Shown here: piece by piece, positions 20,001-52,029 of the stretch | How positions within the stretch are numbered: position 1 is the first letter of the stretch | Layout of the letters: every line of letters begins with the position of its first letter | Origin: Squalus acanthias | Lineage: Eukaryota | DNA length: 64,000 nt | Direction: 5' to 3' | Assembly (NCBI GenBank): GCA_030390025.1 | Contig: CM059425.1 | Span: forward strand, 239,444,001-239,508,000 | Program-made: the position numbers and the translations under genes | The notes under the pieces: model-generated | What the model saw: the letters and a program-made list of their open reading frames with translations, nothing else | Databases searched by the model: none | What the model was told of the DNA's origin: nothing

Positions 20001-23000
20001 GGGCTTGATAGGGTGGATGCTGGGAGAATGTCTCCCTTGGCTGGGGAGTTTAGCACCAGGGGCCACAGCCTCAGGATAAAGGGTAGGCCATTCAGGACTG
20101 AGATGAGAAGAAATTTCTTCACACAGGGTGGTGAATCTTTGGAATTCTCTACCCCAGAGGGCTGTGGAGGTTCAGTCATTGGGTATATGCAAAACAGAAG
20201 TCGATAGATTTCTGACTAGTAAGGGCATCAAGGGATATGCCGATAGGGCCGGTGAATGGAGTTGAGGCAGAAGATCAGCCATGATCTCATTGAATGGCGG
20301 AGCAGGCTCGAAGGGCTGAATGGCCTACTCCTGCTCCTATTTCTTAATGAGAAGTCGCACAACACCAGGTTATAGTCCAACAGATTTATTTAATTTTACA
20401 AGCTTTCGGAGCTTTCGCTCCTTCCTCAGGTAAGTTAGCAGTGAGAGAATCTCCCAGAATTCACAATTTAAACACAGACAAAATCTATTCAAATCTTTCC
20501 CTACATCAAAGACACACTAAGAGCACAGCCAAGACAATGAGATGTGTCCCAGGGGGTCCAACGTGTCAAACCACCTGCTGGCTGCATATCCTGTCAATTT
20601 GTGTTGGTTCTTGTGTTAGTCTTTTTGAAAAAAAAACCACCTGGGAAGACCTGGGTTTGACACGTTGGACCCCCTGGGACACATCTCATTGTCTTGGCTG
20701 TGCTCTTAGTGTGTCTTTGATGTAGGGAAAGATTTGAATAGATTTTGTCTGTGTTTAAATTGTGAATTCTGGGAGATTCTCTCACTGCTAACTTACCTGA
20801 GGAAGGAGCGAAAGCTCCGAAAGCTTGTAAAATTAAATAAATCTGTTGGACTATAACCTGGTGTTGTGCGACTTCTCATTTTTGTCCACCCCAGTCCAAC
20901 GCCGGCATCTCCACATCATGACTCCTATTTCTTATGTTATGTTACCTGCCAACCAATTACTGACCCATGTCACAAGATTGCCCCCAATTCTTTGCGCTTT
21001 CATTTTTGCTAATCTCTTGTGCGGAACCTCATCAAATACCTTCCATAGACACTTCCCTATTCACCCTGCTAGTGATCTCAAAAAATTCATCTACATTAGT
21101 CAGACATGACCTACCCATCACAAATCCAAGCTGACTCTTTAATAGCTGATACTTGTCCAAGTGGTCAATCACTCTGTCTCTGATAAGATTCTAGTAACTT
21201 CCCCACAATTGATGTTAAATTGACAGGTCTCTAGTTACCTTGGTTCTCCCTCCTTTCTTAAATAATGGAGTGACATTTGCAATTTTCCACTCCAAAAGGC
21301 ACAAATTCTAAATCTAGAGAGCCTTGGAAAATTATGACTTGCGCATCTGCAGTTTCTCCACCTATTTTAAAATCCTGAGATGGAAACCATCAAGTCCTGG
21401 AGATTTGTCTATCTTTCTCTAGTACCTGGAGAAACTTCACTGTCTTCATTACTGTATCCTTTCTAAGCCAAGTACTGCGCTCAGTATTCCAAATGTGGTC
21501 TGACAGGAATGTCACAAAACCTTTTAGTGCTTTACAGTGTAGAGGTCTTTTAAATGGAAATTAACCTTTACATTCTTACTCCCTTCCATGTCACTCTACT
21601 GGCACAAAATTCCCAAGATTGCTGGTAGATGTGACTATAGGGCAGGACTGTTTAAACTGTACAAGCAATAAGGAAGGCAAATGGCATGTTGGCCTTTATT
21701 GCAAGGGGGTTGGAGTAGAAGAGTAAGGAAGTCTTGCTACAATTGTACAGGGCCTTGGTGAAACCACACCTGGAGTACGGTGCACAGTTTTGGTCGTCTT
21801 ATCTAAGGAAGGATATACTTGCCTTGGAGGCAGTGCAACGAGGGTTCACTAGACTGATTCCTGGGATGAGAGGGCTGTCCTGGGATGAGAGATAGTGTAG
21901 AATGGGTCTATACTCTCTGGAGTTTAGAAGAATGAGAGGTGATCTCATTGAAACATACAAGATTCTGAAGGGGATTGACAGGGTAGATGCTGAGAAGTTG
22001 TTTCCCCTGGCTGGAGTGTCTAGAACTAGGGGGCATAGTCTCAGGATAAGGGGTAGGCCATTTAAGACTGAGATGAGGAGGAATTTCTTCACTCAGAGGG
22101 TTGTGAATCTTTGGAATTCTCTGCCCCAGAGGGCTGTGGATGCGGAGTCTTTGAGTATATTCAAGGCTGAGATAGATAGATATTTGGACTCCTGGGGAAT
22201 CAATGGATATGGAGATCGGGCAGGAAAGTGGAGTTGAGGTCGATGATCAGTTGATGTCGATGATCAGTTGATGTCGATGATCAGCCATGATGTTATTGAA
22301 TGGCGGAGCAGGCTCGAGGGACCGTATGGCCTACTCCTGCTCCTATTTCTTATGTTCTTAAGAGAAGGGGGCATTGTAGATTCTTTGGTGAATTTTTCTG
22401 ACAACATTTTAAATAGGGAATGTCCACTAATCCAGCAACTCTATCATAAGATGCCTGGAAAAATGGGTCAGCTTGCAGATAAGTAGACACACATCTGCAA
22501 CGTGTTCTAAAAATAGCAGCAGGAAAACTGGTCCATTTTATATAATTAAATTTTATAAGTAGCATGTTAGTGGTAGTAGAATTAATTATAACTTCAACAA
22601 TACAAATGAAATAGTGCACTTCATTTCTGTTAAATTGCAGCTTGATAGGAAATACATGCCTATTGCACCGGGCACCATGATTATTAGCAAGTCAAATGAT
22701 TTATTTTCACTTTATACAAAGCTACAATACTGATCTATGCATTGGTTTCATTACATACCATATCAATGAGGAAATCCAAACAGCATTCATGGGGTAATGG
22801 GTGACCTTGAATACAAAAGGAATTGAGTAAGTTAGTGTGTAGTAGGACTATTGCATTATGTAATGAAATGTTAAAAATTCAATGGAATAAGATACGTTCT
22901 TACTTTCAGACCTGAACTTCTGAGCTCGGCACACAGGATCATAGCATTTCTGGTACCAGATTTCTCTCTTCAAGTCAACCACAACCCTACAAAATAAGAG

Positions 23001-26000
23001 AATGCAATAGAATATGCAATTCCCGACATGGCATCCCATGAGTACTGTTACTGAGATTTTGCTGTCAGCCATTAAGGCAATAGCAGTACTCACCCACAAA
23101 CTGTATTTCCTCTTCCCCCCCCCAGAAATAAGTGAAAACTACTTTTTATAAAAATGTGAAATTTTGTGATAAATACAAGTGCTAGGAATGAATGTTAAAA
23201 CCTGTATGTTGGGGAAAACTAACTGGAACATAGGGCATGAAGTTAGGCCTTTCATACTGTGCAGGAGGACATCTCTACTGTTATGACATTAAAATGTATT
23301 AAAAGGTTGTCTCTGCTGCAGGCTCATTAAAGTGGTAGAGGTTGCGTCTTGTAGGAGAATACAGTCTCTTCCTACTGAACGTATGCTGCAACTTTTCCAT
23401 TGCTCCATATCCTCATTTATAATAATTCAAAAGGTAATACAATTATGTATACATCTGTAAATGGGGATTTTAGTGCACGTGAAATCAACGCATTCACTTA
23501 CTTTAGGGGCTGCTGAGATTCCAGTTTTTGTCTGGAAACAGCAGTGATCTCCAAAATCCAGTAGCATCCTTCGTCAGCATTCTGCTGAGCCCTGGTTGAT
23601 CGAGTAGCTAATGAGGGGATGGTGTTGGGGGCAAGCAAGCAAGGAGTTTTTTGCGTGGACCAAACAGGACAGCTTCTGTCTTAGCAATATTAAGTTTAGG
23701 AAGGCTCTGGCTCATCCACATAATGTCAGCCATGTAATCTAACAGTATAACGCCGAGTGTGGAGGTGAGGGTGGTAGCAGTAAATGTGATATTATAGCAA
23801 ATGTAGTTTTACAGTAACTGGCATAATATTCTAAATAAAGCTCATTTTATTTTATGATGTTAGCCCCAGGTTAACTAGTTGCAAATTTTTTTTGTCTGGT
23901 CAATTTTTCTCTCCTTCCCCCCTCCTGAAAGTGTGAACTCCTTGCTGGGGTATACTTCTACAAGGAGTGACCATCCTCCTATACCTCATCCATGTGCTAT
24001 TATTCACGTGAGCCTTGGCACTGAAACCTGCCTTCAGTGGCTATCTACACGTGTGAACCTTTCAGCAGGGGTCACTAGACAGTGATCTGGAGTGAGAAGC
24101 CCAGCTATTTACCCTCCTCTAATCCAGGGTAGCTGAGGCCACTTTTAACATCCATCCTGCTACCCTGCCCGAGATCAGCTGACTCAGCAGGACTGTGAAT
24201 CTAATCTGGAAGCCTCCAGGTCCATATGGTTCAACTACTCACTGCGTACTCTGACCTGTTGCACATTGAATGAAGGTACGTCCAGTGATTGCAGAGACTG
24301 CTGCTTAGATCAGTTAACATTTGTGTGAATTGTACTTACATAATATTGTTGCTTTTATGAGCTCGACCAATGTTCTCACACCAGTGATTTTTGCTGATGT
24401 CATAAACAATCAGTTCTTCAGAGGAGAAATAATTCCAACGACGCAACTCTGAGGAAATTAAATTATTTTAAAGCTATTTTTAAAGCACAGTATAAGATGA
24501 AACTAACAAGATTCCTGCTTTGCGGTAAGGTTCAATAACGCAGTGGTATTGATGGCCGACGTGACAAAAACTTACCACCTGGTATTCCTCCCTTGTTTAC
24601 TTGACCAGCGATAAAACTGTCAATCTCTGGGTACGGTGAACAATGGTAACCCACCATTGTATCTGTAAAACAGAAATCCGCCACGGCTACAGTTCTCTGT
24701 GAAATACACACAAGCTACAGCAGGACAAAGTGAACATTTATTACGTTAATTTCTAAATAACTCCGTGAAATTTGTTAAGCAAAAATTCTTGTTCAGTCCC
24801 GTGGAATGCACATCCTGTGCCATGTGGGGACTCCAGGACACTTCCCATGTCCTGGACAACCACATGTGCAGGAAGTGTCGTCAGCTGGAGGAGCTCGAGC
24901 TCCGGGTTTTGGAGCTTGAGCAGCAGCTGGCGTCACTGCGGTGTATCCGTGAGGCTGAGAGCTTCGTGGATAGCACGTTTCATGAAGTGGTCACCCCGCC
25001 GATAAAGAGTATGCAGGCAGAAAGGGAATGGGTGATCACCAGACAGAAGAGGAGGACCAGGCAGGTAGTGCAGGAATCCCGAGTGCATCTTGCTCTCCAA
25101 CCAGTATTCAGTTCTGAGTACTGATGAGGGCGATGGTTCCTCTGGGGAGTATAGCCAGAGCCAAGCCTGCGGCACCACGGGTGGCTCAGCTGTACAGGGG
25201 GGAGAGGAAGAAGAGTGGGAAAGCAATAGTGGTAGGGGATTCGATAGTTAAGGGAGTAGATAGGCGTTTCTGCGGCAGCAGACATGACTCCTGGATGGTA
25301 TGTTGCCTCCCTGGTGCCATGGTCAAGGATGTCACCGAGCAGCTGCAGAACATTCTAAGGCAGGAGGGTGAACAGCCAGAGGTCGTGGTCCATATCGGTG
25401 CCAACGACATAGGTAGAAAGAGGGATGAGGTCCTGCAGGCAGATTTCAGGGAGCTAGGAAAGAGGTAGTAATCTCTGGATTACTCCCGGTGCCACGCGCT
25501 AGTGAGTATAGAAATAGGAGGATAGCGCAGATGATTGCGTGGCTGGAGAGATGGTGCAGGAGGGAGGGCTTTAGATTCCTGGGGCATTGGGACCGGTTCT
25601 GGGGAGGTGGGACCTGTACAGGCCGGACAGGTTGCACCTCAACAGGGCCGGAACCAATATCCTCGCGGGGAGGTTTGCTAGTGCTGTTGGAGAGGGTTTA
25701 AACTAATTTGGCAGGGGGATGGGCACCAGGATGTAACATTAGAAAGGGGAAATAAAGTGCTCAAAGGATTGGGAGAGGCAGAGAGCACTAGAGTAAGAAA
25801 TAGTAAGGTATTAGGTGGGGTGAAACAAAGAGAATACAGGATGGTCTAAGATGGGTTTACAGTGTATGTATGTGAACGCACGAAGCGTAGTAAATAAGGT
25901 AAGTGAACTGCAGGCACAGATTTAAGGTGATTGGCAAAAGAGCCAAAGGCGACGTTAAAAAAAAACTTTTTCACACAGACAGTGGTTAAGATCTGGAATG

Positions 26001-29000
26001 CACTGCCTGAAAAGGTGGTGGAGGCAGATTCAATCACGGCTCTCAAAAGGGAGTTGGATAAGTATCTGAAGAAAATAAATTTGCAGGGCTACGGGGAAAG
26101 GGCGGGTGAGTGGGACTAGCTGAAGTGCTTTTGCAGAGAGCCGGCATGGGCTCGACGGGCCAAATGGCCGCCTTCCGTGCTGTAACCATTCTATGATTAC
26201 TCAGAGATAATGTTAATGAAGTTGTCTTGATCAATGAGTGGCACCTAAAGTCAGACGCGCCAGGAACATTTTTAATAGTCACATCTCCGGGTGAAGTATA
26301 TGTAACTATCTTAATCATCGGGCTATTGCTAGAATATGTGTTTCTGCAAGTTTTCAGCTCACCCATCATGTTGACAGAAATGAACCCTAATAACAAAGCC
26401 CCTCCAATATTATTATAATTCTAAACAACTAAAACAAACACTTGAAGCACAATCCATCTATCCTATTAAGTTTTGTGTCTAAGAATATAGATATACTGTA
26501 TAGGATTGCAGGGTACTTGCATTGTTGCCAATTGTTTTGGGCTAACCATGTAGTACCTTGGTCAGGTGCATAGCATGCATCAACCACAGCCAGAGAATCA
26601 ATTCCAGGTAGATGCACAATGCAGCTATATTGTTCTCTGCCCTCCAGTGTTCTACTTTCTTCCTACTATTCCTGTACCCCATCCGCTGCTCTCCCCCACC
26701 CCCTCTCTTAGCTTACCCCTCTCTGATGGGCTTTGGACATTCCCGGTTGCTTGCTCCCCACCTTATCTCTAATCCACCCTCCTGCTTACTCTCAGGCCTC
26801 CACTCCTTAGAATGCAAGCAATACTGCAGGAGATATTTTACTTTTAATTAAAAATATATTTTTTTAGTCAATTGAATTCTGCATTTTCTTTCTAATTGCA
26901 TCTGTCCTATTTAATTCATTCCTGACTTCTTACTAATTTAACCTATCCTATCTTTTAACATGTTTTCACTGAATTAGCAGAGACAGGAATTTCAAATCCT
27001 TTATTTCTTCCTCCAGACTTCACTTTGGGGGTGGGACCAAGACTAATTTTTAGCCCAAGGCTCAGACTGCAACGATTAACATGAAAACATCTCTGGTGCT
27101 AATTTACACATCAAAACTTGAAAGAGACTCTGGCGGTGAACGTACTGGTCAGTGGCCCCAGAGCCCAACAGCAGCTAGATGAGTACGAGGATATAACTCC
27201 GCTACTGAACACTTCCCACTTAATTCTGAGAAATCAAGACTGAAACAGATAGAGAAAATCCCTACTTGGATCTTTTGCATAGTAAGAAGCAAAATATGTA
27301 CACTATCAGTCATGGGCAGAAATAACACTAACATTTTTGTCCTTATAATATAAACAACCAACAGAGATAGCTTTAAAACTATGTCATGCCAGATTAAAGG
27401 TCTACTTTGGTGATCCATCGAAGTAATATGCAAACAGATTATTAGCAAACTGAATACCTGATACAGAGAGATACGCGTTATCTTGAACGTGCCATCCTTT
27501 GGATTTCTTTGTATCTGAGCTATCACAAGTCAGAACTGTCAAGCCGTCAGAAAATCTGTAATTTTAATAGTATTTTGATCAGACAAATTTGCAAACTGTG
27601 TACCTAAATTTAGTTATATCAGTATCTGACATTCTTTCTGATAACTACCATCTAGCACTCATCACTGCACTGAACTTTGAATTTCTATAAGCCAATTCAA
27701 AATCTTCAACCACTTCATTGGCTAGTCTGGATCACATAAAACCGTCCAGTTACTGTGCTCTTTGAATATTGTTTTTCCCTCTATTTATTACTGCATAAAA
27801 TACTACAATTATTTGAAAAAATTAAGGTGTAGTGAGAACAGTAAATTTGTCAGTGGGAAAATAGTTTGTTCAAACATAAAAATAGGCGTGGTGTAAGTGA
27901 AACGATCAATATAATTCTATTTTAATTTTTTGATTGATCTAACAATTATTTTTTTAAAAGTTAATCCAAAAATAGGATTAGTGTATGTGCAACGATACAA
28001 ATTTAAAGAAAGCAATGAAAACTAGGAGACTCACGAAACTAGAAATGAAGTCTAAAGCTAGAATCTTATCAGTCTACATTACTTTTATTAAAATTCCACA
28101 TACTGATAAAGTTATTCCATAGTGTTCGTTAGAAATAGAGAACTTGCATTTATATAGTACACCAGATCTCTCTGGAACCCTAAAGCACTTTACATACAAC
28201 GATTAATTTAAAGTGCTATATAGACGAACACAGCAACCATTTTGCACACATCCAAGACCCACAACATCAGTAAGATGAATGACCAGTTAATCTTTTTCTG
28301 GTAGTGGTTGAGAGAGAAAGATTGGCCAGGACACTGGGAGAACTCCCTGCTCTTCAATTCTTGCCACGATCTTAATATCTAACTAAACAGGAAGACAACA
28401 ACTCAGTACCAGACTGAAGTATCAAACTCATTTATGTGCTCCAGTTCTGGAGTAACTTAAGACAGTGAGATACCATTGTATATTGTAAGCAATGTTTTTC
28501 CCCCACTTCTCAAAACAGTGTTGAACTTTATAGATACTGTACCTAACGTTGCTGACCAGAGAGCTCAGAAAAAATAGCTCCTCTCTAGAAACATTCTTTT
28601 GAAGCTTGGGAACAAACTGATTGTCTTCAGCAACTTCAAAAGAAGTGTTCTTTCCCAGCTTGGATGATCTATACAGTCGGAAGTTTCTGTTCTTTGTATA
28701 CACACCTTTAAAAAAAATCAAAGCAAAGCACAAGTCCCATCATATATTACACTTTACAGCAAAAAAATGAAATAATTGAGGTAGAATTTTAATTTGGGTA
28801 ATGTGACACCAGCAAATGGTTACCTCAAGCATATAAAGTGCAACTGTGGTTACCAATATAACCCGCATCGGAGGAAAATAGTCAAATACGTTAGTAGTCT
28901 TTCTCCTAAATTTCTTTTAACAGATGTTATGTTCAGCATTTTCTGTTTATATTTCAGATTTCCAACATCTGCAGTATTTTGCCTTCTGTATTTATGTTTC

Positions 29001-32000
29001 TGAATGTCTACTGTGTTGTGGATTTCACCAATGGGTTAAGATGAGTTTATGAATCCTGAAGCATTGTGTATGAAGTCCTATAGACCCACCAAGTATTCAC
29101 ATAATTACTGCCAGACTATTTGTACCTGCTGCTTTATCACCTTTCTTTTTCCTTATTTGTAATTTTAATGATGCGTATTTTTTTAAGCTAACTATTAAAG
29201 TTGGAGGAACTCAAAAATCACATCTTTTTTGTAACAGCTTACAGTGTAATTAAAATGTATTCTCCCAAGGTTTCTCTGTGCCACACAACCTGCCCCCAAC
29301 TTCCACATCACCAATATGTACCATATTGGCAAACTAAGTGAGCAACTTGTCCTTTTAGTTGCTATCTACAATTCTCAGGCACATACAGGCAGAGTTGGTT
29401 ATTACTCTATTATTAACTGCACATATAGGTTGAAATGAAAAAAAAATAAGCATTTACGTACCTAGATCCACAAAGAGTTGGTCACTTCCATATTTATCTT
29501 TAACAATCAGAAATGACAAATCTGGATCCAAATTGCTTTGCTTCGATTTTTCCCACACTGCACACTTAATCCTTTTTGAGGGGGAGTTCTCAGAACCATC
29601 TACATTAAAATGCTTCCTCTTGTCTGGAGTGATTGGAATAAATGTTGCACTGGTTGACAGCAAGGCACTGTCACTAGGATCTTGGTCAACTCTCCCACAT
29701 CTTTTTTCCAATACTCTAATCATAGGCTGCAAAATTGTTCTTATAAAATTTCCTTAAACAAAAAACAAATTTCATAGTCAATCAGTATGGTTATGGAGTC
29801 ACTTGTACAATAATTTGTTAGATGCAATTATTTCAGTGTCTTTCTTAATAACACATTTGGAACTTTTTGTTTTGAACAGCCAGGTCGCTTCCACATGTGG
29901 AAACTTATCACCATTCTTAAAGTCTCTGAACCAAACTACTGAAAAATTACATAGGTAATGACCTGGATTTTGCGTTAAGAATAACGGTGAGGCTAACAGC
30001 ACTCTCCCTTATTATGGAGTAAATTGGATAGCAAATTCCGGAGTCCGCACATGCGCAGTTAAACGCGGAAATCCGGAAGGTGCTGTCCGATTTACCCCGC
30101 TCCTCCACACCGGTACCTCGCTGATAGAATCAGCATTGAAATCAATGTAAGGGCGTAAAGTTGCTGTACTTAACCACTAATTACCCACTAAACACACCAA
30201 AAAAAGTTAGGGCTGGTGCATTCAGGCGTAAGTGAATTTGTAACGGTGTGATAAGTCTTAAATACTGCCAAACAACCTCTCTGGCACTGAAAATTTAATT
30301 TTGCAAGTGCGGAGTCTCATTCTTTCAGAATTTAATTATTCTTGGAGATTTAAAAAAAATGTTTTTACTTTTTCTTTCTGTTTCTTTTATCTCTCTTAAT
30401 CTCGTCTTTCTTTCCCTCTCTTTATTTAACTTTCTGTACATGATTTTACAATGAATTAAATATTCTAATTTATACATCCTGGTTTAGATTCTGTGTGGCT
30501 CGGTGAGAATTCTTCAATCATAAGATCATCATATCATAAGATTTAGATTAGCAATGGAGAGGAGCAAGGAACATTCTAGAGTGGAACGTCTAAACTGGAA
30601 TAGGGCTAACTTCAATGGGATGCGAAAGGATCTAGCCAGGGTAAAATTGAACCAAAGACTGACAGGAATAACTGTAACGGAACAATGGGTGATCTTTAAG
30701 GAGGAGATGTTCCAAGTACAGGCTAGGTACATTGCAACAAGAGGGAAGGGTAAGGGAACCAAAGCAAGGGCTCCTTGGATGACGAGGGAGATAGAGAAGA
30801 TAAGAAACAAAAAAAAGAGGGTGTATGATGCATGTCAGGTGAATTCTTCAAGGGAGAACCAGAGCAAATACAATACGTTGAGAGGGGAAGAGAAGATGAA
30901 AATAAGATTGACAAAGAGAGAATATGAGAGTAGAATGGCAGTTAACATAAAAGGGAACCCAAAAATCTTCTACCGGCATGTAAACAGTAAGCAGGTAGTA
31001 AGAGGCGGGGTGGGGCCTATTAACGACAAAGAAGGTGTTATATGCTTAGAGGCGCAGGGCAAGGCTAGAATACTCAATGAGTAGTTTGTATCGGTGTTTA
31101 CTAAGGAGGTGGATGCTGAAAAAATATCAGTAGCAGTGGAAAAGGTAGAAGCAATGGAAGGGGTGAAAATTGATAGACAGGATGTACTAGAAAGGCTGGG
31201 TATGCTTAGAGTGGATAAGTCGCCTGGTCCAGATGGCTTGCATCCCAGGTTGCTAAGGGAATTGGGGGAGGAGATAGCGGAAGGGCTTGCCATAATTTTC
31301 CAAACTTCCCTACATGCGGGGGAGGTGCCTGAGGATTGGAAAGTGGCAAATGTGACACCATTGTTCAAGAAAGGGTGTAAGGACAATCCAAGTAACTACA
31401 GGCAGTTTAACATCAGTGGTGGGTAATGTTTTAGAAACAATAATCAAGGAAAAAATTGACAGGCATTTGGAGAGGTTTAAGCTAATTAAGGAGAGCCAAC
31501 ACGGATTGGTAAAAGGCAGATCATTGTTGACTAATCTAATTGAATTTTTTGATGAAGTAACGGGGAGTATCGATGAAGGGAATGCAATGGATGTTGTCTA
31601 CATGGATTTTAGGAAGGCGTTTGACGAAGTACCACATCGAAGGCTGGTTAACAAAATTGAGGCTCATGGAATAGGTGGGTCAGTGGCAGCTTGGATAAGG
31701 AATTGGCTTAAGGACAGAAAACAGCGAGTTGTGGTAAATGGCTGTTTTTCAGACTGGAGGATGGTAGACAGTGCTGTTCCCCAAGGGTCAGTGCTGGGGC
31801 CACTGCTTTTTTATATATATTATATATATATATATATATAAATGACCTGGATATTGGAATACAAAGTAGAATTTCTAAATTTGCCAACGACACCAAACTT
31901 GGGGGTGTGGCAAACAGTGAGGATGATACCAATCGACTGCAACAGGACGTAGAAAGGCTAGCAGAATGGGCAGACAAGTGGCAGATGGAATTTAATACAG

Positions 32001-38000: not shown

Positions 38001-41000
38001 AATAATCAAACGTATACCGTGGGGTAGAGTTTCCGCTTTGGGCGCAATCGGCGATTCCATTGCAAATTGCGCCCAAAAATGCGCCCGTTTTTAAAAGTCT
38101 TTCCCCCCCCCACCACTGAGTTTCCGCTCAAACTCATTTGCACATTGCCAAACACAAAATCTGCCATGAACCAGCGCAATTGGGCAGCGCTTTAAAATGT
38201 AATTTTGAAAAAAAATTATGCTTTAAAAAAATGTCTTGATAGAGTGGTAACTTGGTACAACTACAGCTGAAAATGGGTTTATCACAAAAAATAAGCATTT
38301 TTAATCATAGTGTCAATCTACCACCTGTCAGTAACCCTATTTTAAATGACTGAAACTGACTTTTAAAAAATATACAAAACTATTTTCTGGTTAGATTAGG
38401 GTACAGTAGTCAGTTCCTTAGTAAATTTTAAAAAGAATTATATTCAAAACCCTTTTAAAAAGGTATCTATTAGTGTCCTTGCGCCCAAAAGATCCAGCTT
38501 AATTGTTAGAGCCTCTTCAAAGGCCTGCAAACGAGCGCAATTAGCGGAAACTTCCAATGGTGATTAATTCACCCTGGGGGCGTGGCCGGTTTTGTGGGCG
38601 GGGCCTGTATCTAGCACGATATTTTTAAAACTAGCGCAAAAGATCGCGGCAACTCGAGTTCCGCTGAATGCAATTTGTGCTTAAAATGACGCGATCTTTT
38701 ATGCCGGTTACGCCGATTTCAGGTGTATTGCGCCAAAAAAAAGTGCAATCGAGCGGAAACTCCAGGCCCTTATCTATAACTCGGTTATTAAGCTAAATTC
38801 CTAACAAGTAAACAAATACTTCAACAGCTCAGCTAACAAGATCAGTACAATTCCTTATTTCTATTATCTTATCACACAAAACCTTCTTCCTGCAGTTAAT
38901 TGCTATTCAACCATGTGAATCTGCTGACCATAAGTCTGTTTTTAATTCTGTATTTTTGTGCATTAGTCCTAATCTAAACTAGGCAACAATTTACACAGAC
39001 ACAAACCAATTAAAAACCCTGGTATCTACACCACTAGAGCACATGCTCAATTAGGTGGTTAGCTCGCACAAGCATGACCCGATTAAAGTGGCCAATGCTA
39101 CTGGGATCAGTTTCCATAATACTTTAATTAAAAATTAATTGACCGCCATCTTAGGCAGGTGTAAAGCAGTACAACATTATACTTGTCCAGTTACTAAAAA
39201 TCACATCCGCTTACATACTGATATTAAGCAAAGTTTAATTAACATTTTTATAAAATTTTCTAAATTCAAGACATTACTGAGGATTGCGAAGCAGCCAACA
39301 TAATTACATTATTTAAAAAGAGCGAAACCACAGACCAATAGGTTTCGCATCTGTTGTAGGGAATGACTTTGAAACTACTTTGAGAGAACTAGTGGGTGAG
39401 CACTTAGAGAAACATATTGTGTTAAAAGGTCAGTCAGTATGGAATTAGGAAATGGTGGTCATGCTAAAGTGAACCTGCTGGGGGTTTTTTTTGCAGACGT
39501 TACGAAAATGGTGAACAGGGAAATATAGTTGAAATTGTACACTTGGATTTTCACAAAGCTTTTGACAAAGTCTAGAACAGTGACTAATGGTTGCAGTAAG
39601 GAGTCATGGAATAGAAGATAAAGTATGATGCTAGATAGAAAATTGGCTTAATGACAGAAAATGAGAGTAGCCATAAATGGAAACTTTTCATGCTGGAAGT
39701 AGGTTATGAGCAGGTTACTACAGGGATCAGTCTTGAAACATTTGCTATTTATAATATAGTATATTATTGTCTTAGAATGAAATATTATAAGCAAAATCTC
39801 AAAATTTGCAGTAAATATCAAAATAGGAGACAGGACAAATAAGATGCAATGCAATTAGGCTAAAAAAAGGTGAGTTTTTTTCCTTTCCTTGGAGGGGTCG
39901 AGAGGAGCAGGAGTGCTCTTTCACGCCCTACGAGGAAAGCTTAGGCTTCTCCTACCCTGGAAATTCATTCAAAACAACCTCTATTAGATCTTATTAGCAT
40001 GATATAGTCGCTTACTGGTAGTAAAACCACAGCTCAGTGTAGGTTGTGACAAGGTAAATTCGCTGTCCAAGCATAGTGTCCTTCTTCTCAATTTCATTCT
40101 CCAAAGCAAATACGTGAACATCCTGTAATGAAATGTTAAAAATAAAAAGAATATAATTCAGGCACATATTCCTTCTTTAGCCCATGGTGTTTACTGAAGG
40201 CTTTCAACTTTATTATGGTTTGGCTGCTGGGAAGTTCTGCTTGATATCTGGACTATTTTTATGGAGATATACACTCTTTTTAGCATTCCTCATTTTTCTC
40301 CCCTTTCTCATTTCCTCCCTTTCCCAGGTACATAGGCCGCGATTTCCCCTACCTTGGTGGGTCCGGTGCGGCCGGGGTCAGTGGCGGGTCCTGACCCCGC
40401 TGCTGGCTCCAGCCCACTGTCCAAAGTGATTTTATGTTGATTGGGCTTGTTAAGCCCGTCCAGCGCATTTGCCGGCCAATTGAAGGAAGCAGGTCTGATG
40501 ACGTCACTTGATGACGCGTCATAAGCCGGTTTCCTTAAAGGGACCATGCGCAAATTGATTTTGACAGTTGTGCTGTCAATGTTCTACAGCATTGAGGTGC
40601 TGCAAACACTGACAAGCACTGCACAGAGGTGCATGCCTGCACCCAGGCTCTCCCATGACTCCCTCCATATGCTTATGGAGCGAGTCAAAGCACGCAGGGA
40701 GGTCTTCTTCCCTTCCCATGGGCAGAAGAGACCTCCCCAGGAGATCAACGCAGCCTAGTTGCACATTGCACAGGAAGACACAAGCAGGGATGTCGTCAGG
40801 TAGACCAGGCTACAGTGGCGGAAACCTTTCAATTATCTCAGTAGGTCACAAAACGTTACTGCAAAGCCACACTCAACCTCATCCTACAGTAAATAAAACC
40901 AGAAAATGCTGGAAATACTCAGCAGGTCAGGCAGCATCTGTGGAGAGAGAAACAGAGTTAACGTTTCAGGTCGATGACCCCTCGTCAGAGCTGGAAAAAG

Positions 41001-44000
41001 CTGGAGATCGAACAGGTTTTTAAGCAAGTGTAGGGGCAGGGAAAGGGGGGAGGGGAGGAAAGAACAAAAGGGAAGGTCTGTGATGGGATGGAAGGCAGGA
41101 GAGATTAAGAGACAAACGGGATGATGGCGCAAGGCAAGGAGATGGTAATGGGACAAGTTAAGAAACAAAATATGACGCTAGATGAAGTGTAAATGGCAAT
41201 GGCAGAATGATCAACAGTTGCCATGTGAGAGAGAGAAAAAAAAAATTGAAAAAAAAGATTGGGGCAGAGGTTATGGTCTGAAATTGTTGAACTCAATGTT
41301 GAGTCCAGAAGGCTGTAAAGTGCCTAATCGAAAGATGAGGTGCTGTTCCTCGAGCTTACATTGAGCTTCATTGGAACAGTGCAAGAGGCCGAGGACAGAG
41401 AAGTCAGAGTGGGAGTGGAGCATTAAAGTGAGAGGCAACCGGAAGCTCGGGGTCACCCTTACGGACTGAACGGAGGTGTTCCGCAAAGCGGTCACCCAAT
41501 CTGCGTTTGGTCTCCCCAATGTAGAGGAGACCGCATCGTGAGCAGCGAATACAGTATACTAAATTGCAAGAAGTACAAGTAAATCGCTGTTTCACCTGGA
41601 AGGAGTGTTTGGGGCTCTGGACAGTGGGAAGGGAGGAGGTAAAAGGGCATGTGTTGCATCTCCTGCGCTTGCACGTGAAGGTGCCGGGCGAAGGGGAAGG
41701 GGTGTTGGGGGTGATAGAGGAGTGGACCAGGGTGTCACGGAGGGAGCGGTCCCTTCGGAATGCTGAAAGGGGAGGTGAGGGGAAGATGTGTTTGGTGGTG
41801 GGATCGCGCTGGAGGTGGTGGAAATGGCGGAGGATGATCCGTTGAATGTGGAGGCTGGTGGGGTGAAAGGTGAGGACAAGGGGAACCCTATTGTGGTTCC
41901 GGGAGAGAGGGGCAGGGGTGAGGGCAGAAGTGCGGGAAATAGAACAGATGCGGTCAAGGGCCGTGTCAACCACAGTAGAGGGGAATCCTCGGTTGAGGAA
42001 AAAGGAAGACATGCCGGAAGCACTAGTATGGAAGGTGGCATCGTCAGAGCAGATGCGGCGGAGATGGAGAAACTGGGAGAATGGAATAGAGTCCTTACAG
42101 GAAGCGGGGTGGGAGGAAGTGTAGTCCAGGTAGCTGTGAGAGTCAGTGGGCTTGTAGTGAATGTTTGTCAATAGCCTATCCCCAGAGATGGCAACAGAGA
42201 AGTCGAGGAAGGGAAGGGAAGAGTCGGAGATGGACCATGTGAAGGTGAGGGAAGGGTGGAAATTGGAAGCAAAGTGAATGAAATTTTCTAGTTCAGGGCG
42301 AAAGCAGGAAACGGCACCGATACAGTCATCAATGTACCGGAAAAAGAGGTGAGGGAGGGGACCCGAGTAGGACTGGAACAAAGAATGTTCCACATATCCC
42401 ACGAAAAGGCAGGCATAGCTAGGACCCATGCGGGTTCCCATAGCAACACCTTTAATTTGGAGGAAGTGAGTGGAGTCAAAGGAGTAGTTGTTCAATGTGA
42501 GAACAAGTTCAGTCAGGCGAAGGAGGGTGGTGGTGGAATGGGACTGGTTGGGCCTCTGTTCAAGGAAGAAGCGGAGCGCCCTGAGGCCATTCTGGTGGGG
42601 GAGTGTCACTCATCACATCCCCATCACTCTGCCTTCCCTACCCTACTCCTGCACTTCCTTACTCACACCAACTTACCTTACACCTCCACCCATCCCTCTC
42701 CATCTACATTATCACTTCCTGATCTCACTAGCCAACCCTCACACTCACCCTCATCCTAGTCCAATCATAGTCCACCAGGATAGGCACTTGTGTGTTTTAG
42801 CCAATGTTCATGTGAAGTTTCTGTTAATGTGCTGTCAAATATTGAAATCTTTATTTTCAATACTGCATTCTTGGACAGATTTGTGTGCACCTTTGGAAGT
42901 GGCTTAGTGAGTTGCAGCGAATGGTGAGACATAACGGTACCCCCCGCAATGGTGATGAGTGTGAAAGGAATGGCTTGGGCATTGTAGGGATGCTTTATGG
43001 TGTTGGTGTGGGGTGGTGCCAACCTGGCGCATCATGTGTTGTCAATGGTGAGAGAGGTTGTTCCAATGAAGGGACACTGGATACAGAGTTTACTCCAAAC
43101 ACTTGCAACCTGCATAAAGCTCAATCTGTCTTCCAAATGCAGTAAGCAACAGCTTCTGAGCTTGGAAAGTGAACAGCTATGAGATGGAACTTCTTTAGCA
43201 CATTTGCAGCTGTCAAGTAAAGAGATGATTTCATGGTGGCACAACTCCCGACCTGCTTACCTGACGTGATCCCTGAGCAGCGTGGAACCCGTGGGTGACC
43301 TCATAAAATGTTAAGGTGAGCTCAAAATTCTCTTTAACAGGCTGTTAACAAGGTCTTAATCACCTAAATTGCCTCCCCCGCCACTTGGTGTCGTGTCTGT
43401 TCAGCGCTGACAGACCCGACATCTGTGAAACTAGCGTGGCAGCGGGTTCCCTATAGTTTCCATGTCTAAGAATATGGGATACACAACATGCTTTCAATTC
43501 ACCATCATTGCCATTCTTGACTGGCCACTAGGAGGCACACCAGAGCAGAAGAATGCCCAACTGATTTTATATCCCCATCTTCAGACAGGAGTTCAGCTTC
43601 CTCTGTCTGCTCTGCCTGCTATTGCACTGCACTTAAGGCTGAATATGTGACGTTGGAAGGATGAGTCAGAGAAAGAGGGCATTTGAACCTGTGCTCTCCT
43701 ACTGTGTGGTGTCATCCATTGACAATTTAAATGCATAGTGTCACTGCACCTCCCCATTTACAATTTTTTTTTTAAAAGAAAGATTTATTTTCAAATAATT
43801 TTTGTTGACCTTTTTTTTCCAGATAGCACTTTACTCCAACTTTGGCTATCTAAAAAGAAAAATGATTATTCTCTGACAAAGGTTCTTTGATACAAACAAT
43901 TTTGGTTTTAATCTGTCCTTGAACATCTGACTGGAATTTGTTCCATTTTCTGAACAGCAAACACATTTATGAGGGGTCTCCCGAAGTAGCAAACGCCTTC

Positions 44001-45844
44001 CAATATAAAGTAAAGCCATCGACAGTCAAATACCCAAGTGTTAGAGAATCAGAAAAGATGTGGGTCACCGGGTGTAGAAGACTGCTTTGAAAGGAACACA
44101 ACTATGGCAATTAAGATTTCCAGTTCCACCGAATCGTGTCTTCCATATATAGGTACATTGGATAAATGTCCAAAGATGTACCTTTTAGGAGTGCTTACTA
44201 CTGAAGATAAAATTAAGCCACCAAAGTAGAGGAAGCCATCAATAATCAGAAAGTTAAGCTCCTGGTGCTATTTCCACAGCTAATCTGAGAATAGAAAACC
44301 AAACAAAACTACCCTGGAAGGGCCACTTCACCAAACAAGAGCTAGAAATACATAAAAGCACACGAAAAAAAGAAATAAAAACTTGCATTTATATAGCGCC
44401 TCAGGGCGTCCCAAAACACTTTACAGCCAGTGAAGTACTTTTGAAGTGTAGTCACTATTGGAATGTAGGGTGAATTGTACAACTGCTAATGTTGTACCAT
44501 TGTTTAAAAAGGGAGAAAGGGATACACCAAATAATTACAGGCCAGTCAGTCTAACCTCGGTGATGGGCAAATTATTGGAAAAAATTCTGAGGGACAGTAT
44601 TAATCGTCATTTAGAAAGGCACGAATTAATCAAGGGCAGTCAGCCTGGATTTGTTAAGGGAAGATCGTGTCTGACTAACTTGATTGAATTTTTTGAGGAG
44701 GTAACAAGGAGGGTCGATGAGGGTACCATGTTTGATGTAGTCTACATGGATGATAGCCTGGATTATGTGCTCAAGTCTTTGGAATGGGGCTTGAACACAC
44801 AACCTTCTGACTCAGAGGCGAGAGTGCCACCAGTGAGCCAAGGTAGACATGTTAAGAAGGGGAAAAGACCATCAGGCTCGCTCTATCCAGACATGGTGCA
44901 ACTACACACACCACTCACCCCATCTCTAACCTGCAACTTCCTAGTAGTGAGTGAGATATTAGGATGGAATGCAACCATCTAAGGCGTGAATTCACCAAAG
45001 CCTAGAACAATGAAGTGGACCTCGAAAGAATTTGTTTAGCAGTTGAACAAAGGGTCCAAATATAATTAACTCGCTAAGAGATCAGAAAGAGACTTTACAA
45101 ACTGGGTGTTACCCATAATCTGAGGGAAATAGTGAAAGGCAAGTTATATCATTATCTGGCTTTTATCACTGGACTTTACAATGTGACAAACTGAAATATA
45201 TAGCATAAGGTTTAGTAGCCAGGTTCATGAATTGGTAGAATTTTCAGTATCATGCAAACACTATTTTACTTCCAAAGCTATTATTGTAATAAATGGAGGA
45301 GTGCATTACTTAAAGGGACAAGATTGGCGATCAGTTGGTGAGTGGTGGAGTCTAACTTTTGTATAATTCTATACACCTGAAGAAAAATATTAAAGGGTTC
45401 AGGGATAGAACATGGAAATGGGATAAGTGTAGATAGCTTCAATGTATAAATTTCTATGCTTTTAATTAAAGAGAAAAACACTCACTTAGTCTCACTTCTT
45501 TTAGTTTTCTAAATACAGATCTAACATAAACGCTTGATAGGGCATCTATAAACCTCAGCAGTTCACTGAATATCTATTTTCTTCCTGAAAGTCCATTATG
45601 TTATTCACTGTGCAACACAACCTCTATTCACATTTCTAAAATATAATGATATATTTTACTTTACCGCCTTACAGCTCTTGGAAAAATTAAAGGCTTGATG
45701 CTGGCGATAAAACAACTTCCAAATCGATGCTGGTTGCCAGGGTTTTGAAAGTTTAGGTTTGTAAGTCAGGCTGATGGGGTGTTTTTGATAGCTGCCTGCT
45801 AAAGTTTCAAGGTCCTTTACTCTTTGCTGCCAGTTCTTCTTCAT
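16687..45844 (-). CDS. PRIMPOL: DNA-directed primase/polymerase PrimPol, complete CDS, 12 coding exons, 593 aa; complement(join(16687..17016,22759..22805,22904..22986,24340..24448,24576..24662,27458..27555,28543..28705,29462..29752,34702..34849,37514..37652,40016..40122,45665..45844))
   Basis: All introns GT-AG with consistent phases, total 1782 nt. AEP motifs LYFDLE (DxE), FSRHL (SxH), [14 protein letters not shown]; WFYY motif; UL52-type Zn finger WCENIGRAH...KCYDPVC; acidic RPA-binding motifs at the C-terminus. Confidence 0.97.
17590..18130 (-). mobile_element. CR1 3' fragments
   Basis: CR1 tail and RT-derived sequence. Confidence 0.7.
18165..18574 (-). mobile_element. Deu-domain tRNA-derived SINE (SacSINE1/AmnSINE1-related)
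   Basis: Near-full copy of the 59041-59497 element. Confidence 0.8.
18600..20346 (+). mobile_element. 5'-truncated CR1 LINE
   Basis: ORFs 18803..19003 and 19461..20207 are CR1 RT; 3' tail interrupted by the Penelope insertion. Confidence 0.92.
20347..20921 (+). mobile_element. Non-coding Penelope-like element: inverted pLTR pair (227-bp perfect arms) with 3' tail and hammerhead motif
   Basis: Arms 20346-20572 and 20654-20880, 81-bp spacer, about 40-nt unpaired tail; 13-bp TSD ctcctatttctta at 20334-20346 and 20922-20934. Confidence 0.85.
20793..20830 (+). ncRNA. Minimal type I hammerhead ribozyme motif (mirror copy at 20396-20433, minus strand)
   Basis: TTAC-CTGAGGA-A-GGAGC-GAAA-GCTCC-GAAA-GCTT-GTAA: core boxes, stem II, stem I TTAC/GTAA, palindromic AGCT in place of stem III. 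Confidence 0.7.
20945..21500 (-). mobile_element. Old CR1 fragments
   Basis: Decayed IDKSPGLDG...ANVTPLF...YRPV region. Confidence 0.65.
21660..22360 (+). mobile_element. CR1 3' fragment with a 17-bp x3 internal tandem duplication (22232-22284)
   Basis: ORF 21902..22237 is the CR1 C-terminus; agttgakgtcgatgatc repeated three times. Confidence 0.9.
22759..22805 (-). CDS. PRIMPOL: PRIMPOL coding exon 11 ([16 protein letters not shown])
   Basis: ttcaag acceptor, gtatgt donor, 47 nt; aligns to human CFPLPAEVCLLFLFKE. Confidence 0.88.
22904..22986 (-). CDS. PRIMPOL: PRIMPOL coding exon 10 ([28 protein letters not shown])
   Basis: ttgtag acceptor, gtaaga donor; Zn-finger CxDPxC. Confidence 0.95.
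23880..24260 (-). mobile_element. Old SINE-like repeat (same family as 5480-5830)
   Basis: Reverse-complement similarity to the 5480 copy. Confidence 0.5.
24340..24448 (-). CDS. PRIMPOL: PRIMPOL coding exon 9 ([36 protein letters not shown])
   Basis: cctcag acceptor, gtaagt donor; Zn-finger Cys and His. Confidence 0.95.
24576..24662 (-). CDS. PRIMPOL: PRIMPOL coding exon 8 ([29 protein letters not shown])
   Basis: ttttacag acceptor, gtaagt donor; SPYPEID motif. Confidence 0.93.
24790..26200 (+). mobile_element. CR1 with ORF1 joined almost directly to the ORF2 3' end and tail (ORF2 deleted)
   Basis: ORFs 24765..25124 and 25124..25468 (CxxCx[23 protein letters not shown]); ORF2 start [10 protein letters not shown] jumps to FKVIGKR at about 25920. 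Confidence 0.88.
27458..27555 (-). CDS. PRIMPOL: PRIMPOL coding exon 7 ([33 protein letters not shown])
   Basis: ttacag acceptor, gtattc donor; aligns to human RFSDTLRILTCE. Confidence 0.9.
28140..28455 (-). mobile_element. Degraded Deu-domain SINE
   Basis: aacttgcatttatatag tail and attggccaggacactgggagaactccctgctctt core. Confidence 0.65.
28543..28705 (-). CDS. PRIMPOL: PRIMPOL coding exon 6 ([19 protein letters not shown]...FLSSLVSNV)
   Basis: tttaaag acceptor, gtacag donor; NRNFR motif. Confidence 0.95.
28920..28990 (+). mobile_element. Remnant of the Penelope family-B pLTR 3' end and tail
   Basis: cagcattttctgtttatatttcagatttccaacatctgcagtatttt matches 53318-53366. Confidence 0.6.
29462..29752 (-). 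CDS. PRIMPOL: PRIMPOL coding exon 5 ([10 protein letters not shown]...[21 protein letters not shown])
   Basis: tttaag acceptor, gtacgt donor; motif III FVD. Confidence 0.95.
29960..33010. mobile_element. GC-rich non-autonomous DNA-transposon-like repeat (about 29960-30518 and 32790-33010) split by a CR1
   Basis: CpG-rich ends and AT-rich middle like the other MITEs; ttcttcaatc / tgactggttgaaga halves rejoin across the CR1; TIRs not clearly resolved. Confidence 0.4.
30520..32790 (+). mobile_element. 5'-truncated CR1 LINE ORF2 with a (TA)n expansion at about 31812-31840
   Basis: ORFs 30554..32595 are successive CR1 ORF2 pieces ([22 protein letters not shown]); CR1 tail. Confidence 0.92.
34702..34849 (-). 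CDS. PRIMPOL: PRIMPOL coding exon 4 ([10 protein letters not shown]...[10 protein letters not shown]...NIHV)
   Basis: attcag acceptor, gtaagt donor; SxH motif II. Confidence 0.95.
36345..37420 (+). mobile_element. L2-clade LINE 3' fragment
   Basis: [39 protein letters not shown] and LHWLP motifs; tail tatataaatgcaagtt shared with the Deu-SINEs. Confidence 0.85.
37514..37652 (-). CDS. PRIMPOL: PRIMPOL coding exon 3 ([27 protein letters not shown]...VAKLIQ)
   Basis: ttttcag acceptor, CAG|gtgctg donor; catalytic DxE motif I. Confidence 0.95.
38021..38769. mobile_element. Harbinger-like MITE, about 750 bp
   Basis: TIRs ggggtagagtttccgct / agcggaaactccaggccc; GC-rich ends, AT-rich centre. Confidence 0.7.
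39350..39860 (+). mobile_element. Old CR1 RT fragment
   Basis: Decayed [10 protein letters not shown]...IENWLNDRK...QGSVL segment. Confidence 0.65.
40016..40122 (-). CDS. PRIMPOL: PRIMPOL coding exon 2 (DVHVFALE...[17 protein letters not shown])
   Basis: ttacag acceptor, gtaagc donor; DVHVFALE and WFYY motifs. Confidence 0.95.
40890..42600 (-). mobile_element. 5'-truncated Penelope-like retroelement (RT C-terminal half + GIY-YIG endonuclease + pLTR)
   Basis: ORF 41404..42609 has [23 protein letters not shown], CxxxRCxTC and [17 protein letters not shown]; a frameshift near 41420 continues into [10 protein letters not shown]. Confidence 0.92.
40956..40992 (-). ncRNA. Minimal hammerhead ribozyme motif in the Penelope pLTR (family B)
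   Basis: AGCT-CTGACGA-G-GGGTC-ATC-GACCT-GAAA-CGTT-AACT. Confidence 0.65.
44378..44850 (-). mobile_element. Deu-SINE tail and head with the centre replaced by a plus-strand CR1 RT fragment (about 44480-44750)
   Basis: SINE tail 44378-44470, CR1 [10 protein letters not shown]...DVVYMD, SINE tRNA head 44753-44848. Confidence 0.75.
45665..45844 (-). CDS. PRIMPOL: PRIMPOL coding exon 1 ([13 protein letters not shown]...[10 protein letters not shown])
   Basis: ctcag|AGTATG acceptor (exon starts 45847), 60 codons, gtaaag donor; matches human MNRKWEAKLKQIE...AFNFVKSCKE. Confidence 0.95.
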
Positions 45845-46624
45845 ACTCTGAGAAAAGTAAAGACATATTAGTTGAGGTTCCCTTAAAATTACAAGAAATT
45901 TTAGGAACAGGAAAACCCAACAAACACGTCTTTTTGATCTCACTTCCCATCGACCTACTTTCACAACATATCCCTCAACAAACATATCTAATTACCTCTT
46001 AAACCCATTTCCCATTATAAAGTATTCCACAAGTGTATAACACTTAGGTTACAAAATTTGCCTTACTTCCCTTCTTATTCCTAAATTCCTCATTTCTAAT
46101 CTGTAATCCCTAATATTTAAAACATTCACCATAGAGAACAATTTGTGCAGATTGCTCTTTAGTGAGAGAAACAGAAGAAACTACAAATCCCAGAGAGACA
46201 TGCTGGAATGAGAGAAAAATGAAAAAAACAGATACAGAAGAAAAATAAGAGAAAGAGTAAAAGGAGAAAAACAAAACAAGATTACAGTGAAAATAGAAAT
46301 AGAGAAAAAAATAGTTCAATACACCAAAAGATCACGTTAGATGTGAGGAAAGCCATTCATCTTATCTTATTCAATTCATCCAGAAAGAACCTACAGTCCT
46401 TCTCATTACTGCATCCAATTGCTTCTTAAATGATTCTAAGATTTTCACCTCCACTATCCTATCCAGAAGTCTTTCCCATGTGTTGAGCACTCCACAAAAG
46501 CAAAACTTTGAGATGTCTTTCACTAATTTGAACCTGTGCCCCATCCTAATTTTTAATGTTTAATTTGCAGTATTGTTCTGAATTTACCTTTTCTATACAG
46601 TATATTATCTTATATACTTCATTA

Positions 46625-50250: not shown

Positions 50251-50319
50251 ACAGGGGATGGGCAATAAATGCTGGCCTTGCCAGCGACACCTACATCCCA
50301 TGAACGAAAAGGTGCCCTA

Positions 50320-50630: not shown

Positions 50631-50643
50631 TCAACTTTACACT

Positions 50644-50680
50644 TCACCTGACGAAGGAGCAGCGCTCCGAAAGCTTGTGA
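50644..50680 (+). ncRNA. Minimal type I hammerhead ribozyme motif (family A)
   Basis: TCAC-CTGACGA-A-GGAGC-AGC-GCTCC-GAAA-GCTT-GTGA. Confidence 0.7.
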
Positions 50681-51750: not shown

Positions 51751-51751
51751 A

Positions 51752-52021: not shown

Positions 52022-52029
52022 GCGCGCTC

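What the first reader, a model, noticed from the sequence alone, without database searches (positions are those of the whole stretch)
20793..50680. Family A hammerhead motif shows apparent structural covariation between two copies
Seen: 20793-20830 reads TTAC-CTGAGGA-A-GGAGC[GAAA]GCTCC-GAAA-GCTT-GTAA and 50644-50680 reads TCAC-CTGACGA-A-GGAGC[AGC]GCTCC-GAAA-GCTT-GTGA. Differences fall only at the free N of CUGANGA, in loop II, and as a paired change in stem I (T-A versus C-G). Known: minimal type I hammerheads of PLEs lack helix III and have a short palindrome proposed to let them act as dimers. Inference: the ribozyme fold was under selection in the source elements, with predicted cleavage after CUU. 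Two copies are too few to prove covariation.
Basis: partly seen in the sequence, partly recalled or inferred. Interest (0 to 1): 0.72.

Follow-up and report, generated by a model that had tools for sequence, protein, structure and literature searches.

The report
Penelope-element hammerhead relics in shark gene
Both motifs are real minimal hammerhead-ribozyme sequences inside short, truncated insertions of an abundant shark repeat that is very likely a Penelope-like jumping gene; this kind of motif was described in 2014, and these particular copies are predicted to be inert.

Summary
Both motifs are present as written, and a third, identical copy lies on the minus strand (20433-20396). Three strict-descriptor hits stand against 0 in each of 100 shuffles. 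Each motif sits near the 3' end of a 5'-truncated insertion with its own 13-bp target-site duplication. Insertion 1 is a head-to-head inverted pair with a 41-nt tail on one arm only, the layout published for Penelope-like elements (PLEs). The host is a shark PRIMPOL locus, and the repeat is abundant in 4 of 4 runs laid. The motif fits the published PLE minimal-hammerhead consensus.

The two-copy 'covariation' is one event, probably between two sister families (chance 0.02-0.06). Wider support: 8 of 11 pairs change on both sides across 7 related motifs, including the helix III palindrome. No ORF was linked to family A, and cleavage was not tested. The two named copies are antisense to PRIMPOL, and the sense copy is predicted to be locked in a 227-bp hairpin. 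This scan found the same kind of motif on other shark DNA. New member of a known kind; low interest.

The parts
20334..20346 (.). Left copy of the 13-bp target-site duplication of insertion 1 (target is the 3' tail of another dispersed repeat)
   Evidence: flanking repeat family D20
20347..20653 (-). Inverted, 5'-truncated family A copy, lacking the 41-nt tail; continuous with the element in other genomes
   Evidence: joint 20573/20654 on opposite strands in 4 of 4 runs
20396..20433 (-). Third minimal hammerhead, identical to copy 1; sense to PRIMPOL, predicted to be fully paired in the 227-bp hairpin
20654..20921 (+). Direct, 5'-truncated family A copy with tail; no open frame (2-7 stops per frame)
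20793..20830 (+). Minimal type I hammerhead, copy 1: stem I 4 bp, core, extra A after A9, stem II 5 bp, AGCU palindrome in place of helix III; predicted cut 20826/20827
20881..20921 (+). 41-nt C-rich 'tail', present on one arm only; loose ends pile at 20878 and 20919-20920
20922..20934 (.). Right copy of the 13-bp target-site duplication of insertion 1
50632..50644 (.). Left copy of the 13-bp target-site duplication of insertion 2; its last base is the outer stem I base of copy 2
50644..50680 (+). Minimal type I hammerhead, copy 2; predicted cut 50676/50677
50645..50768 (+). 124-nt insertion 2: hammerhead plus 3' end with tail, about 90% identical to 20794-20918
50769..50781 (.). Right copy of the 13-bp target-site duplication of insertion 2
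16690..45850 (-). Context: coding exons of the shark PRIMPOL gene; insertion 1 lies in the last coding intron, insertion 2 upstream of the first coding exon (likely a 5'-UTR intron)
41271..42609 (-). Context: 5'-truncated PLE ORF (RT plus GIY-YIG, frameshifted near 41420) of the other family (B), followed by its own decayed hammerhead at about 40992-40956
53239..53275 (+). Context: family B minimal hammerhead (ACGU palindrome) used in the covariation comparison

Best explanation
The two motifs are minimal type I hammerhead sequences near the 3' ends of two separate, 5'-truncated insertions of an abundant shark repeat, very likely a Penelope-like retroelement, and these copies are predicted to be inert. 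In the parent element's RNA, two hammerheads (one per flanking repeat) would pair through the AGCU palindrome to build helix III and cut slowly after CUU, probably helped by the element's protein (inferred from related elements). The element's endonuclease would nick AT-rich DNA. Reverse transcription would start at either of two sites, about 52-54 and 92-95 nt past the cut site, which gives copies with or without the tail and a 13-bp duplication (inferred). Both insertions keep the hammerhead whole, so uncut RNA was likely the template. The stem I U-A/C-G difference is likely one compensatory change between two sister families, inherited from selection on the parent elements and not maintained at this locus.
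For: Shown here: motif above chance; 13-bp duplications around both insertions; head-to-head inverted arms, 227 of 227 identical, with a 41-nt tail on one arm. 11163, 1126, 150 and 28 contigs were laid in 4 of 4 runs (four organisms), with loose ends in run X5 at 20878 (54) and 20919-20920 (60, 48). A PLE RT/GIY-YIG ORF with its own minimal hammerhead lies in the same window. Across 7 motifs, 93.5% of 77 cells pair, against 66.4 +/- 4.3% shuffled and at most 46.8% for slid controls; 8 of 11 pairs change on both sides, including the palindrome (GC in 4, CG in 2, unpaired in 1). From papers: consensus and dimer model (PMC4209133); inverted 5'-truncated copy and 30-40-bp tail (PMC8557442); 8-10-bp duplications and head-to-head layout in rotifer Penelopes (PMC3846280); two reverse-transcription start sites bounding the tail, protein-assisted cleavage, and uncut RNA as the main substrate (PMC11167929). 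Predicted inertness: + strand copies are antisense to PRIMPOL; the sense copy's stem probabilities are 0.00 in the folded insertion.
Against: No family A copy was linked to an RT/GIY-YIG ORF: a PLE profile found nothing significant near either insertion or in loci L001-L007. No cleavage or RNA-end data: all runs offered were contigs. No listed contig shows both halves of the C-G form together (230 loose ends and 12555 pieces were not shown). A subfamily carries T>C at 20793 (16-36% of depth in the 4 runs) with no listed change at 20830, so the outer stem I pair is not strictly kept. Only 2 of the 15 listed variant places fall in the 38-nt motif, about what its length predicts, so core conservation within the family is not by itself informative. 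The designed dimer (-16 to -19 kcal/mol) is not the lowest-energy two-strand fold (-23 to -29), and stem I probability in local context is only 0.09-0.21. The one search set is small, related, and partly pattern-selected.
Confidence: 0.88

Rival explanations
1. Family A is a non-autonomous, hammerhead-headed short element (a solo retrozyme-like or SINE-like PLE derivative) mobilised in trans, not the truncated end of an autonomous PLE.
For: Insertion 2 is only 124 nt and starts at stem I. No ORF is attached in the window, and the 137 nt upstream of copy 1 lie in an arm with stops in all three frames. A 2026 preprint reports non-LTR retrozymes derived from PLE flanking repeats, in one chondrichthyan genome among others (10.64898/2026.07.22.740005).
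Against: Insertion 1 extends at least 220 nt upstream of the motif and is continuous there in 4 of 4 runs. Neither copy is in a tandem array, which that preprint's definition of an active retrozyme requires. Variable 5' truncation with inversion is the ordinary PLE pattern.
Confidence: 0.15
2. The motif is real, but the paired stem I change is a coincidence of two neutral transitions or a junction effect, with no structural selection behind it.
For: One event only; chance 0.02-0.06. It sits beside a patch where 3 of 4 bases differ, and at the very first base of insertion 2. The outer pair is broken in one subfamily.
Against: The C is not from the target site: the right duplicate is followed by G. 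Loose ends in 3 of 4 runs (2, 3 and 1 contigs) show a different upstream sequence ending in the same C, and X5 and X7 show the G-form 3' strand. A marine-metagenome motif with unrelated flanks has the C-G form in a 5-bp stem I, and another has a different 4-bp stem I; the search pattern did not fix stem I.
Confidence: 0.2
3. One or more copies have been domesticated to cut or regulate PRIMPOL pre-mRNA.
For: The minus-strand copy is intact and sense to PRIMPOL in its last coding intron.
Against: Its antisense arm is transcribed first and is a perfect 227-nt complement (folded stem probabilities 0.00). No second sense-strand family A partner lies in the window. Identical arms and intact duplications point to a young insertion, not an old conserved one.
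Confidence: 0.03
4. The perfect inverted repeat (third copy) is an assembly or fold-back artefact.
For: Arms are 100% identical; no listed contig spans the 20653/20654 junction on one strand.
Against: The whole unit is bounded by a 13-bp duplication, one arm lacks exactly the tail, and the shorter end matches an end seen in many contigs. This layout is the published PLE one.
Confidence: 0.04

Closest known systems
Minimal hammerheads (min-HHR) of metazoan Penelope-like elements (Cervera and De la Pena 2014, PMC4209133)
   Same: Type I topology, core CUGANGA plus one extra base, G10.1-C11.1, short stem I, longer stem II, palindromic 15.2-16.2 with no loop III, AU-rich 3' flank, mostly single dispersed copies, sometimes a second copy nearby on the opposite strand. 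The painted turtle and Philodina rows of Fig. S3 have the same G-C/U-U arrangement.
   Different: No cartilaginous fish among the Fig. S3 rows or Table S1 as read; this family's sequence is not shown there; no ORF link shown here for family A.
Poseidon PLE of Anolis carolinensis (Frangieh et al. 2024, PMC11167929)
   Same: Hammerhead upstream of two element ends that bound an optional tail; AT-rich target; hammerhead retained uncut in insertions.
   Different: There the ORF starts at stem II and activity was measured with protein; here no start codon lies at stem II in either copy, the clade is not determined, and nothing was assayed.
Non-LTR retrozymes (bioRxiv 10.64898/2026.07.22.740005)
   Same: Non-coding, type I hammerhead, related to PLE flanking repeats, reported in a chondrichthyan.
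   Different: Retrozymes are tandem arrays with a hammerhead in each unit; these are solo or inverted 5'-truncated insertions with target-site duplications.
Canonical type I hammerheads (Rfam families; Schistosoma and newt type)
   Same: Same catalytic core and NUH site.
   Different: No helix III, and no closing loop for stem I was identified; no Rfam hammerhead hit at E up to 10.

Membership tests
PLE minimal hammerhead (min-HHR) | Intact core CUGANGA ... GAAA ... UH in type I order | tested here: met
   3 of 3 family A copies
PLE minimal hammerhead (min-HHR) | Extra nucleotide between 9 and 10.1, and G10.1-C11.1 pair | tested here: met
   A then G-C in both copies; listed as conserved in PMC4209133
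PLE minimal hammerhead (min-HHR) | Palindromic 15.2-16.2 with no or tiny loop III | tested here: met
   AGCU in family A, ACGU in family B
PLE minimal hammerhead (min-HHR) | Short stem I and stem II of 4 bp or more | tested here: met
   4 bp and 5 bp; outer stem I base of copy 2 lies in the duplication
PLE minimal hammerhead (min-HHR) | Covariation of stems across copies and families | tested here: inconclusive
   8 of 11 pairs change on both sides in 7 related, partly pattern-selected motifs; one event between the two named copies; outer pair broken in one subfamily
PLE minimal hammerhead (min-HHR) | Self-cleavage as dimer or with protein help | not testable with these tools
   Needs an assay; only contigs, no raw RNA reads, were offered
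Penelope-like element | RT plus GIY-YIG ORF on the same element | tested here: inconclusive
   Not present in the two truncated family A insertions; present for family B at 42609-41271; no genome held to look for full-length family A
Penelope-like element | 5' truncation with adjacent inverted copy | tested here: met
   20347-20653 (-) head-to-head with 20654-20921 (+)
Penelope-like element | Optional 30-40-bp tail at one end | tested here: met
   41 nt on one arm; two clusters of loose ends in run X5
Penelope-like element | Short target-site duplication | tested here: met
   13 bp at 2 of 2 insertions; 8-10 bp reported in rotifer Penelopes
Non-LTR retrozyme | Tandem array with a hammerhead in consecutive units | tested here: not met
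   Copies are solo or inverted, about 30 kb apart
Canonical type I hammerhead (Rfam) | Helix III and a match to an Rfam hammerhead model | tested here: not met
   0 hammerhead matches among 7 hits at E up to 10

The most novel reading that the evidence does not exclude
The hammerhead-plus-tail unit (about 125 nt, starting at stem I) is a self-contained, currently mobile non-autonomous element in sharks. Its abundant transcripts pair in trans through the AGCU palindrome, so that single intronic sense copies could be cut by a partner from elsewhere in the genome, a genome-wide, repeat-encoded RNA cleavage network.
Probability: 0.05. Interest if true: 0.6.

Novelty: new member of a known kind. 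Interest (0 to 1): 0.15.

Why it matters
The role of PLE hammerheads in vivo is still open: activity in vitro is low, cleavage was not needed for insertion in the one reconstituted element (PMC11167929), and some PLE clades lack the motif (PMC8557442). Shark genomes, with abundant young copies of several hammerhead families, would be good material for a proper covariation and cleavage-site test. This locus by itself does not advance the question. It is a tidy example of PLE insertion anatomy (13-bp duplication, inverted copy, optional tail) with a hammerhead passenger.

Tried and rejected
Rfam scan of the whole window: no hammerhead family at E up to 10. No whole genome is held, so no genome-wide alignment or R-scape-type test was possible. 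The family's conserved 3' motif gave 0 matches in metagenome, viral and prokaryotic collections. The hammerhead pattern gave 0 in viral and prokaryotic collections and 7 loci in metagenomes. Of these, L001, L004 and L006 (one sequence) and L005 have no stem I (0-1 bp) and were dropped as chance matches. L002 duplicates L003, so L003 and L007 were kept. Also left out of the 7-row alignment: the identical minus-strand copy and the truncated family B half-copy at about 53240-53150. The records behind L002, L003 and L007 are not held for wider search, and a PLE profile of 60 of the 120 listed homologues found nothing significant in their flanks. Folding z-scores of the motifs alone are weak (-1.96 and -1.14), and the 3' region shows no notable fold. 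The bacterial promoter/terminator scan is irrelevant to a vertebrate and was ignored. Runs guessed to be RNA hold 52-58% of the words but may be DNA, so expression is not claimed. Lunse et al. (PMC5785218) is not held; only its title and a review's summary were seen. I did not test whether a gene lies on the + strand beyond 52 kb (ORFs listed, not scanned). The sequence look-up of earlier findings returned nothing.
Full report
Observation. The two strings are in the window exactly as quoted, at 20793-20830 and 50644-50680. A descriptor for minimal type I hammerheads finds 4 sites on both strands, against a mean of 0.09 in 100 dinucleotide shuffles. The strict form with a palindromic helix III finds 3, against 0 in every shuffle. 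The third strict site is an identical copy on the minus strand at 20433-20396, in one arm of a perfect 227-nt inverted repeat. The fourth site (53243, +) belongs to a different family, B. Rfam returns no hammerhead in the window at E up to 10.

Anatomy. The two copies share about 128 nt at about 90% identity, from stem I to a common 3' end. Insertion 1 spans 20347-20921 and is bounded by a 13-bp duplication (20334-20346, 20922-20934). Insertion 2 spans 50645-50768 and is bounded by a different 13-bp duplication (50632-50644, 50769-50781). They are therefore two independent insertion events. Insertion 1 is a head-to-head pair: a minus-strand copy (20653 to 20347) and a plus-strand copy (20654 to 20921) that alone carries a 41-nt C-rich tail.

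Other genomes. Contigs of four public runs from four organisms were laid on 20573-20960: 11163, 1126, 150 and 28 records. A joint between 20573 and 20654 on opposite strands appears in 4 of 4 runs, showing that the minus-strand arm is the continuous element. In run X5, loose ends pile at 20878 (54) and 20919-20920 (60, 48), the two ends seen in the window. Depth there is no copy number, and contigs cannot show RNA ends.

Published layout. An adjacent inverted 5'-truncated copy and a 30-40-bp tail at one end are described for PLEs (PMC8557442, passages). Short duplications and the head-to-head layout are described for rotifer Penelopes (PMC3846280, passages). In the anole Poseidon element the tail lies between two reverse-transcription start sites (PMC11167929, parts 1-2 of 4).

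Host context. An ORF at 17061-16690 matches shark and ray PRIMPOL (24 hits among 288 candidates, best 85% identity), and tblastn maps its coding exons on the minus strand from 45850 to 16690. Insertion 1 is in the last coding intron. Insertion 2 lies between the first coding exon, which is preceded by an acceptor-like AG, and a CpG-rich stretch at 51501-53000. It is therefore likely in a 5'-UTR intron (inferred). Both named motifs are antisense to PRIMPOL. The only sense copy would be transcribed after its perfect antisense arm, and folding the whole insertion gives probability 0.00 for all nine hammerhead stem pairs on either strand. A separate PLE (family B) with RT and GIY-YIG similarity lies at 42609-41271, followed by its own decayed minimal hammerhead (the Pfam GIY-YIG match, 20.6 bits, is just under the 22.6 cut-off). 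No ORF is attached to family A in the window.

Covariation between the two copies. But 3 of the next 4 bases differ too, and 7 of 88 downstream bases in all. At that divergence, 31 unchanged motif positions have a chance of 0.08-0.22, and two stem changes falling on one pair and compensating have a chance of 0.02-0.06: one suggestive event. In copy 2 the outer stem I base is the last base of the duplication and the changed C is the first base of the insert. The C is not from the target, since the right duplicate is followed by G. Loose ends in X6, X7 and X19 (2, 3, 1 contigs) show a sister family with its own upstream sequence ending in that C, and X5 (39 contigs) and X7 show the matching G-form 3' strand. 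No listed contig holds both halves, and the tables are cut. One contig each in X6 and X7 implies a fifth stem II pair changed from C-G to U-A.

Evidence against strict stem conservation. T>C at 20793 has 16-36% of depth in the four runs, with no listed change at 20830, so the outer pair is broken in a subfamily. Only 2 of 15 listed variant places fall in the motif (20793 and N7), about what its length predicts.

Wider comparison. A pattern that fixed the core and part of stem II, but not stem I, found 7 metagenome loci (4 distinct sequences). Two of the four have a stem I of 5 and 4 bp; two have none and were dropped. Seven motifs were aligned: two of family A, L003, L007 and three of family B. 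93.5% of 77 cells pair, against 66.4 +/- 4.3% in shuffles and at most 46.8% in slid controls. 8 of 11 pairs change on both sides (83 of 500 shuffles reach that count, so this measure alone is not significant), and the helix III palindrome switches between AGCU and ACGU. The set is small, related, partly selected, and the structure was taken from copy 1, so this supports but does not prove selection.

Mechanism. Shown: the sequence, the insertion anatomy, the abundance and the strand relation to PRIMPOL. Inferred from relatives: in parent-element RNA two hammerheads pair through the palindrome to form helix III and cut slowly after CUU. PMC4209133 (parts 1-2 of 4) found monomers silent and dimers weakly active, and PMC11167929 found cleavage only with the element's protein and not needed for insertion. 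Both insertions here keep the motif whole across the predicted cut, which fits uncut RNA as template. The designed double-hammerhead scores -16 to -19 kcal/mol and is not the lowest-energy two-strand fold, in line with weak activity. At this locus the copies are most likely passengers.

Comparison with what is known. The 2014 consensus (core with one extra base, G10.1-C11.1, palindrome, NUH, AU-rich flank) is met point by point. The paper already reports families full of covariations. Its supplement (parts 1-2 of 3, text only, figures not seen) has turtle and rotifer rows with the same G-C/U-U arrangement and no cartilaginous fish. Searches for hammerhead + Penelope + shark (4 papers) and Penelope + elasmobranch + transposable elements + genome (4 papers) listed no paper on this family; I saw listings only, except passages of PMC6155905. 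Repeat libraries could not be searched. A 2026 preprint (part 1 of 5 and passages; supplements not seen) includes one chondrichthyan with tandem retrozymes and may cover related sequences. Lunse et al. was seen only as a title and a review's summary (PMC6765202, passages). Earlier notes of this scan report the same kind of motif in this genome and other sharks; they were seen after my reading was recorded and are not counted as support.

Verdict. It is a new member of a known kind; interest 0.15.

Noticed in passing
window 20346-20880: Perfect 227-bp inverted repeat inside the last coding intron of PRIMPOL; it would form a long double-stranded hairpin in the pre-mRNA, a possible editing or small-RNA substrate (inference).
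   Followed up: partly
window 42609-40890 (-): 5'-truncated family B PLE: RT plus GIY-YIG ORF, frameshifted near 41420, with a decayed minimal hammerhead about 280 nt after the ORF end; inside a PRIMPOL intron in sense orientation.
   Followed up: partly
window 53149-53340 and 57744-57853: Further family B ends; the 53 kb one is also a head-to-head inverted pair (gave a spurious miRNA match in Rfam). Family B closes stem II with A-U or G-U rather than the usual G10.1-C11.1.
   Followed up: partly
window 16690-45850 (-): Complete set of PRIMPOL coding exons by tblastn with shark homologues.
   Followed up: partly
window 51501-53000: CpG-rich stretch (observed/expected 0.93-1.16) with a 46-bp tandem repeat at 51842-52025; likely the PRIMPOL promoter region.
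   Followed up: no
L003 294-336 (same as L002): A marine-metagenome contig carries a hammerhead about 90% identical to copy 2 over 39 nt (5-bp stem I, CUA site) with unrelated flanks; a family A-like motif outside this repeat family, host unknown.
   Followed up: partly
L007 294-340 (-): Another minimal hammerhead with the same palindrome but a different stem I and longer stem II.
   Followed up: partly
window 20334-20346 and 50632-50644: Both target-site duplications are exactly 13 bp, hinting at a fixed nick stagger for this family (two cases only).
   Followed up: no
window, many places (e.g. 19461-20346, 47628-50316, 59935-60819): Numerous decayed LINE-type fragments with RVT_1 similarity (one confirmed); insertion 1 landed in the 3' tail of one of them.
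   Followed up: no
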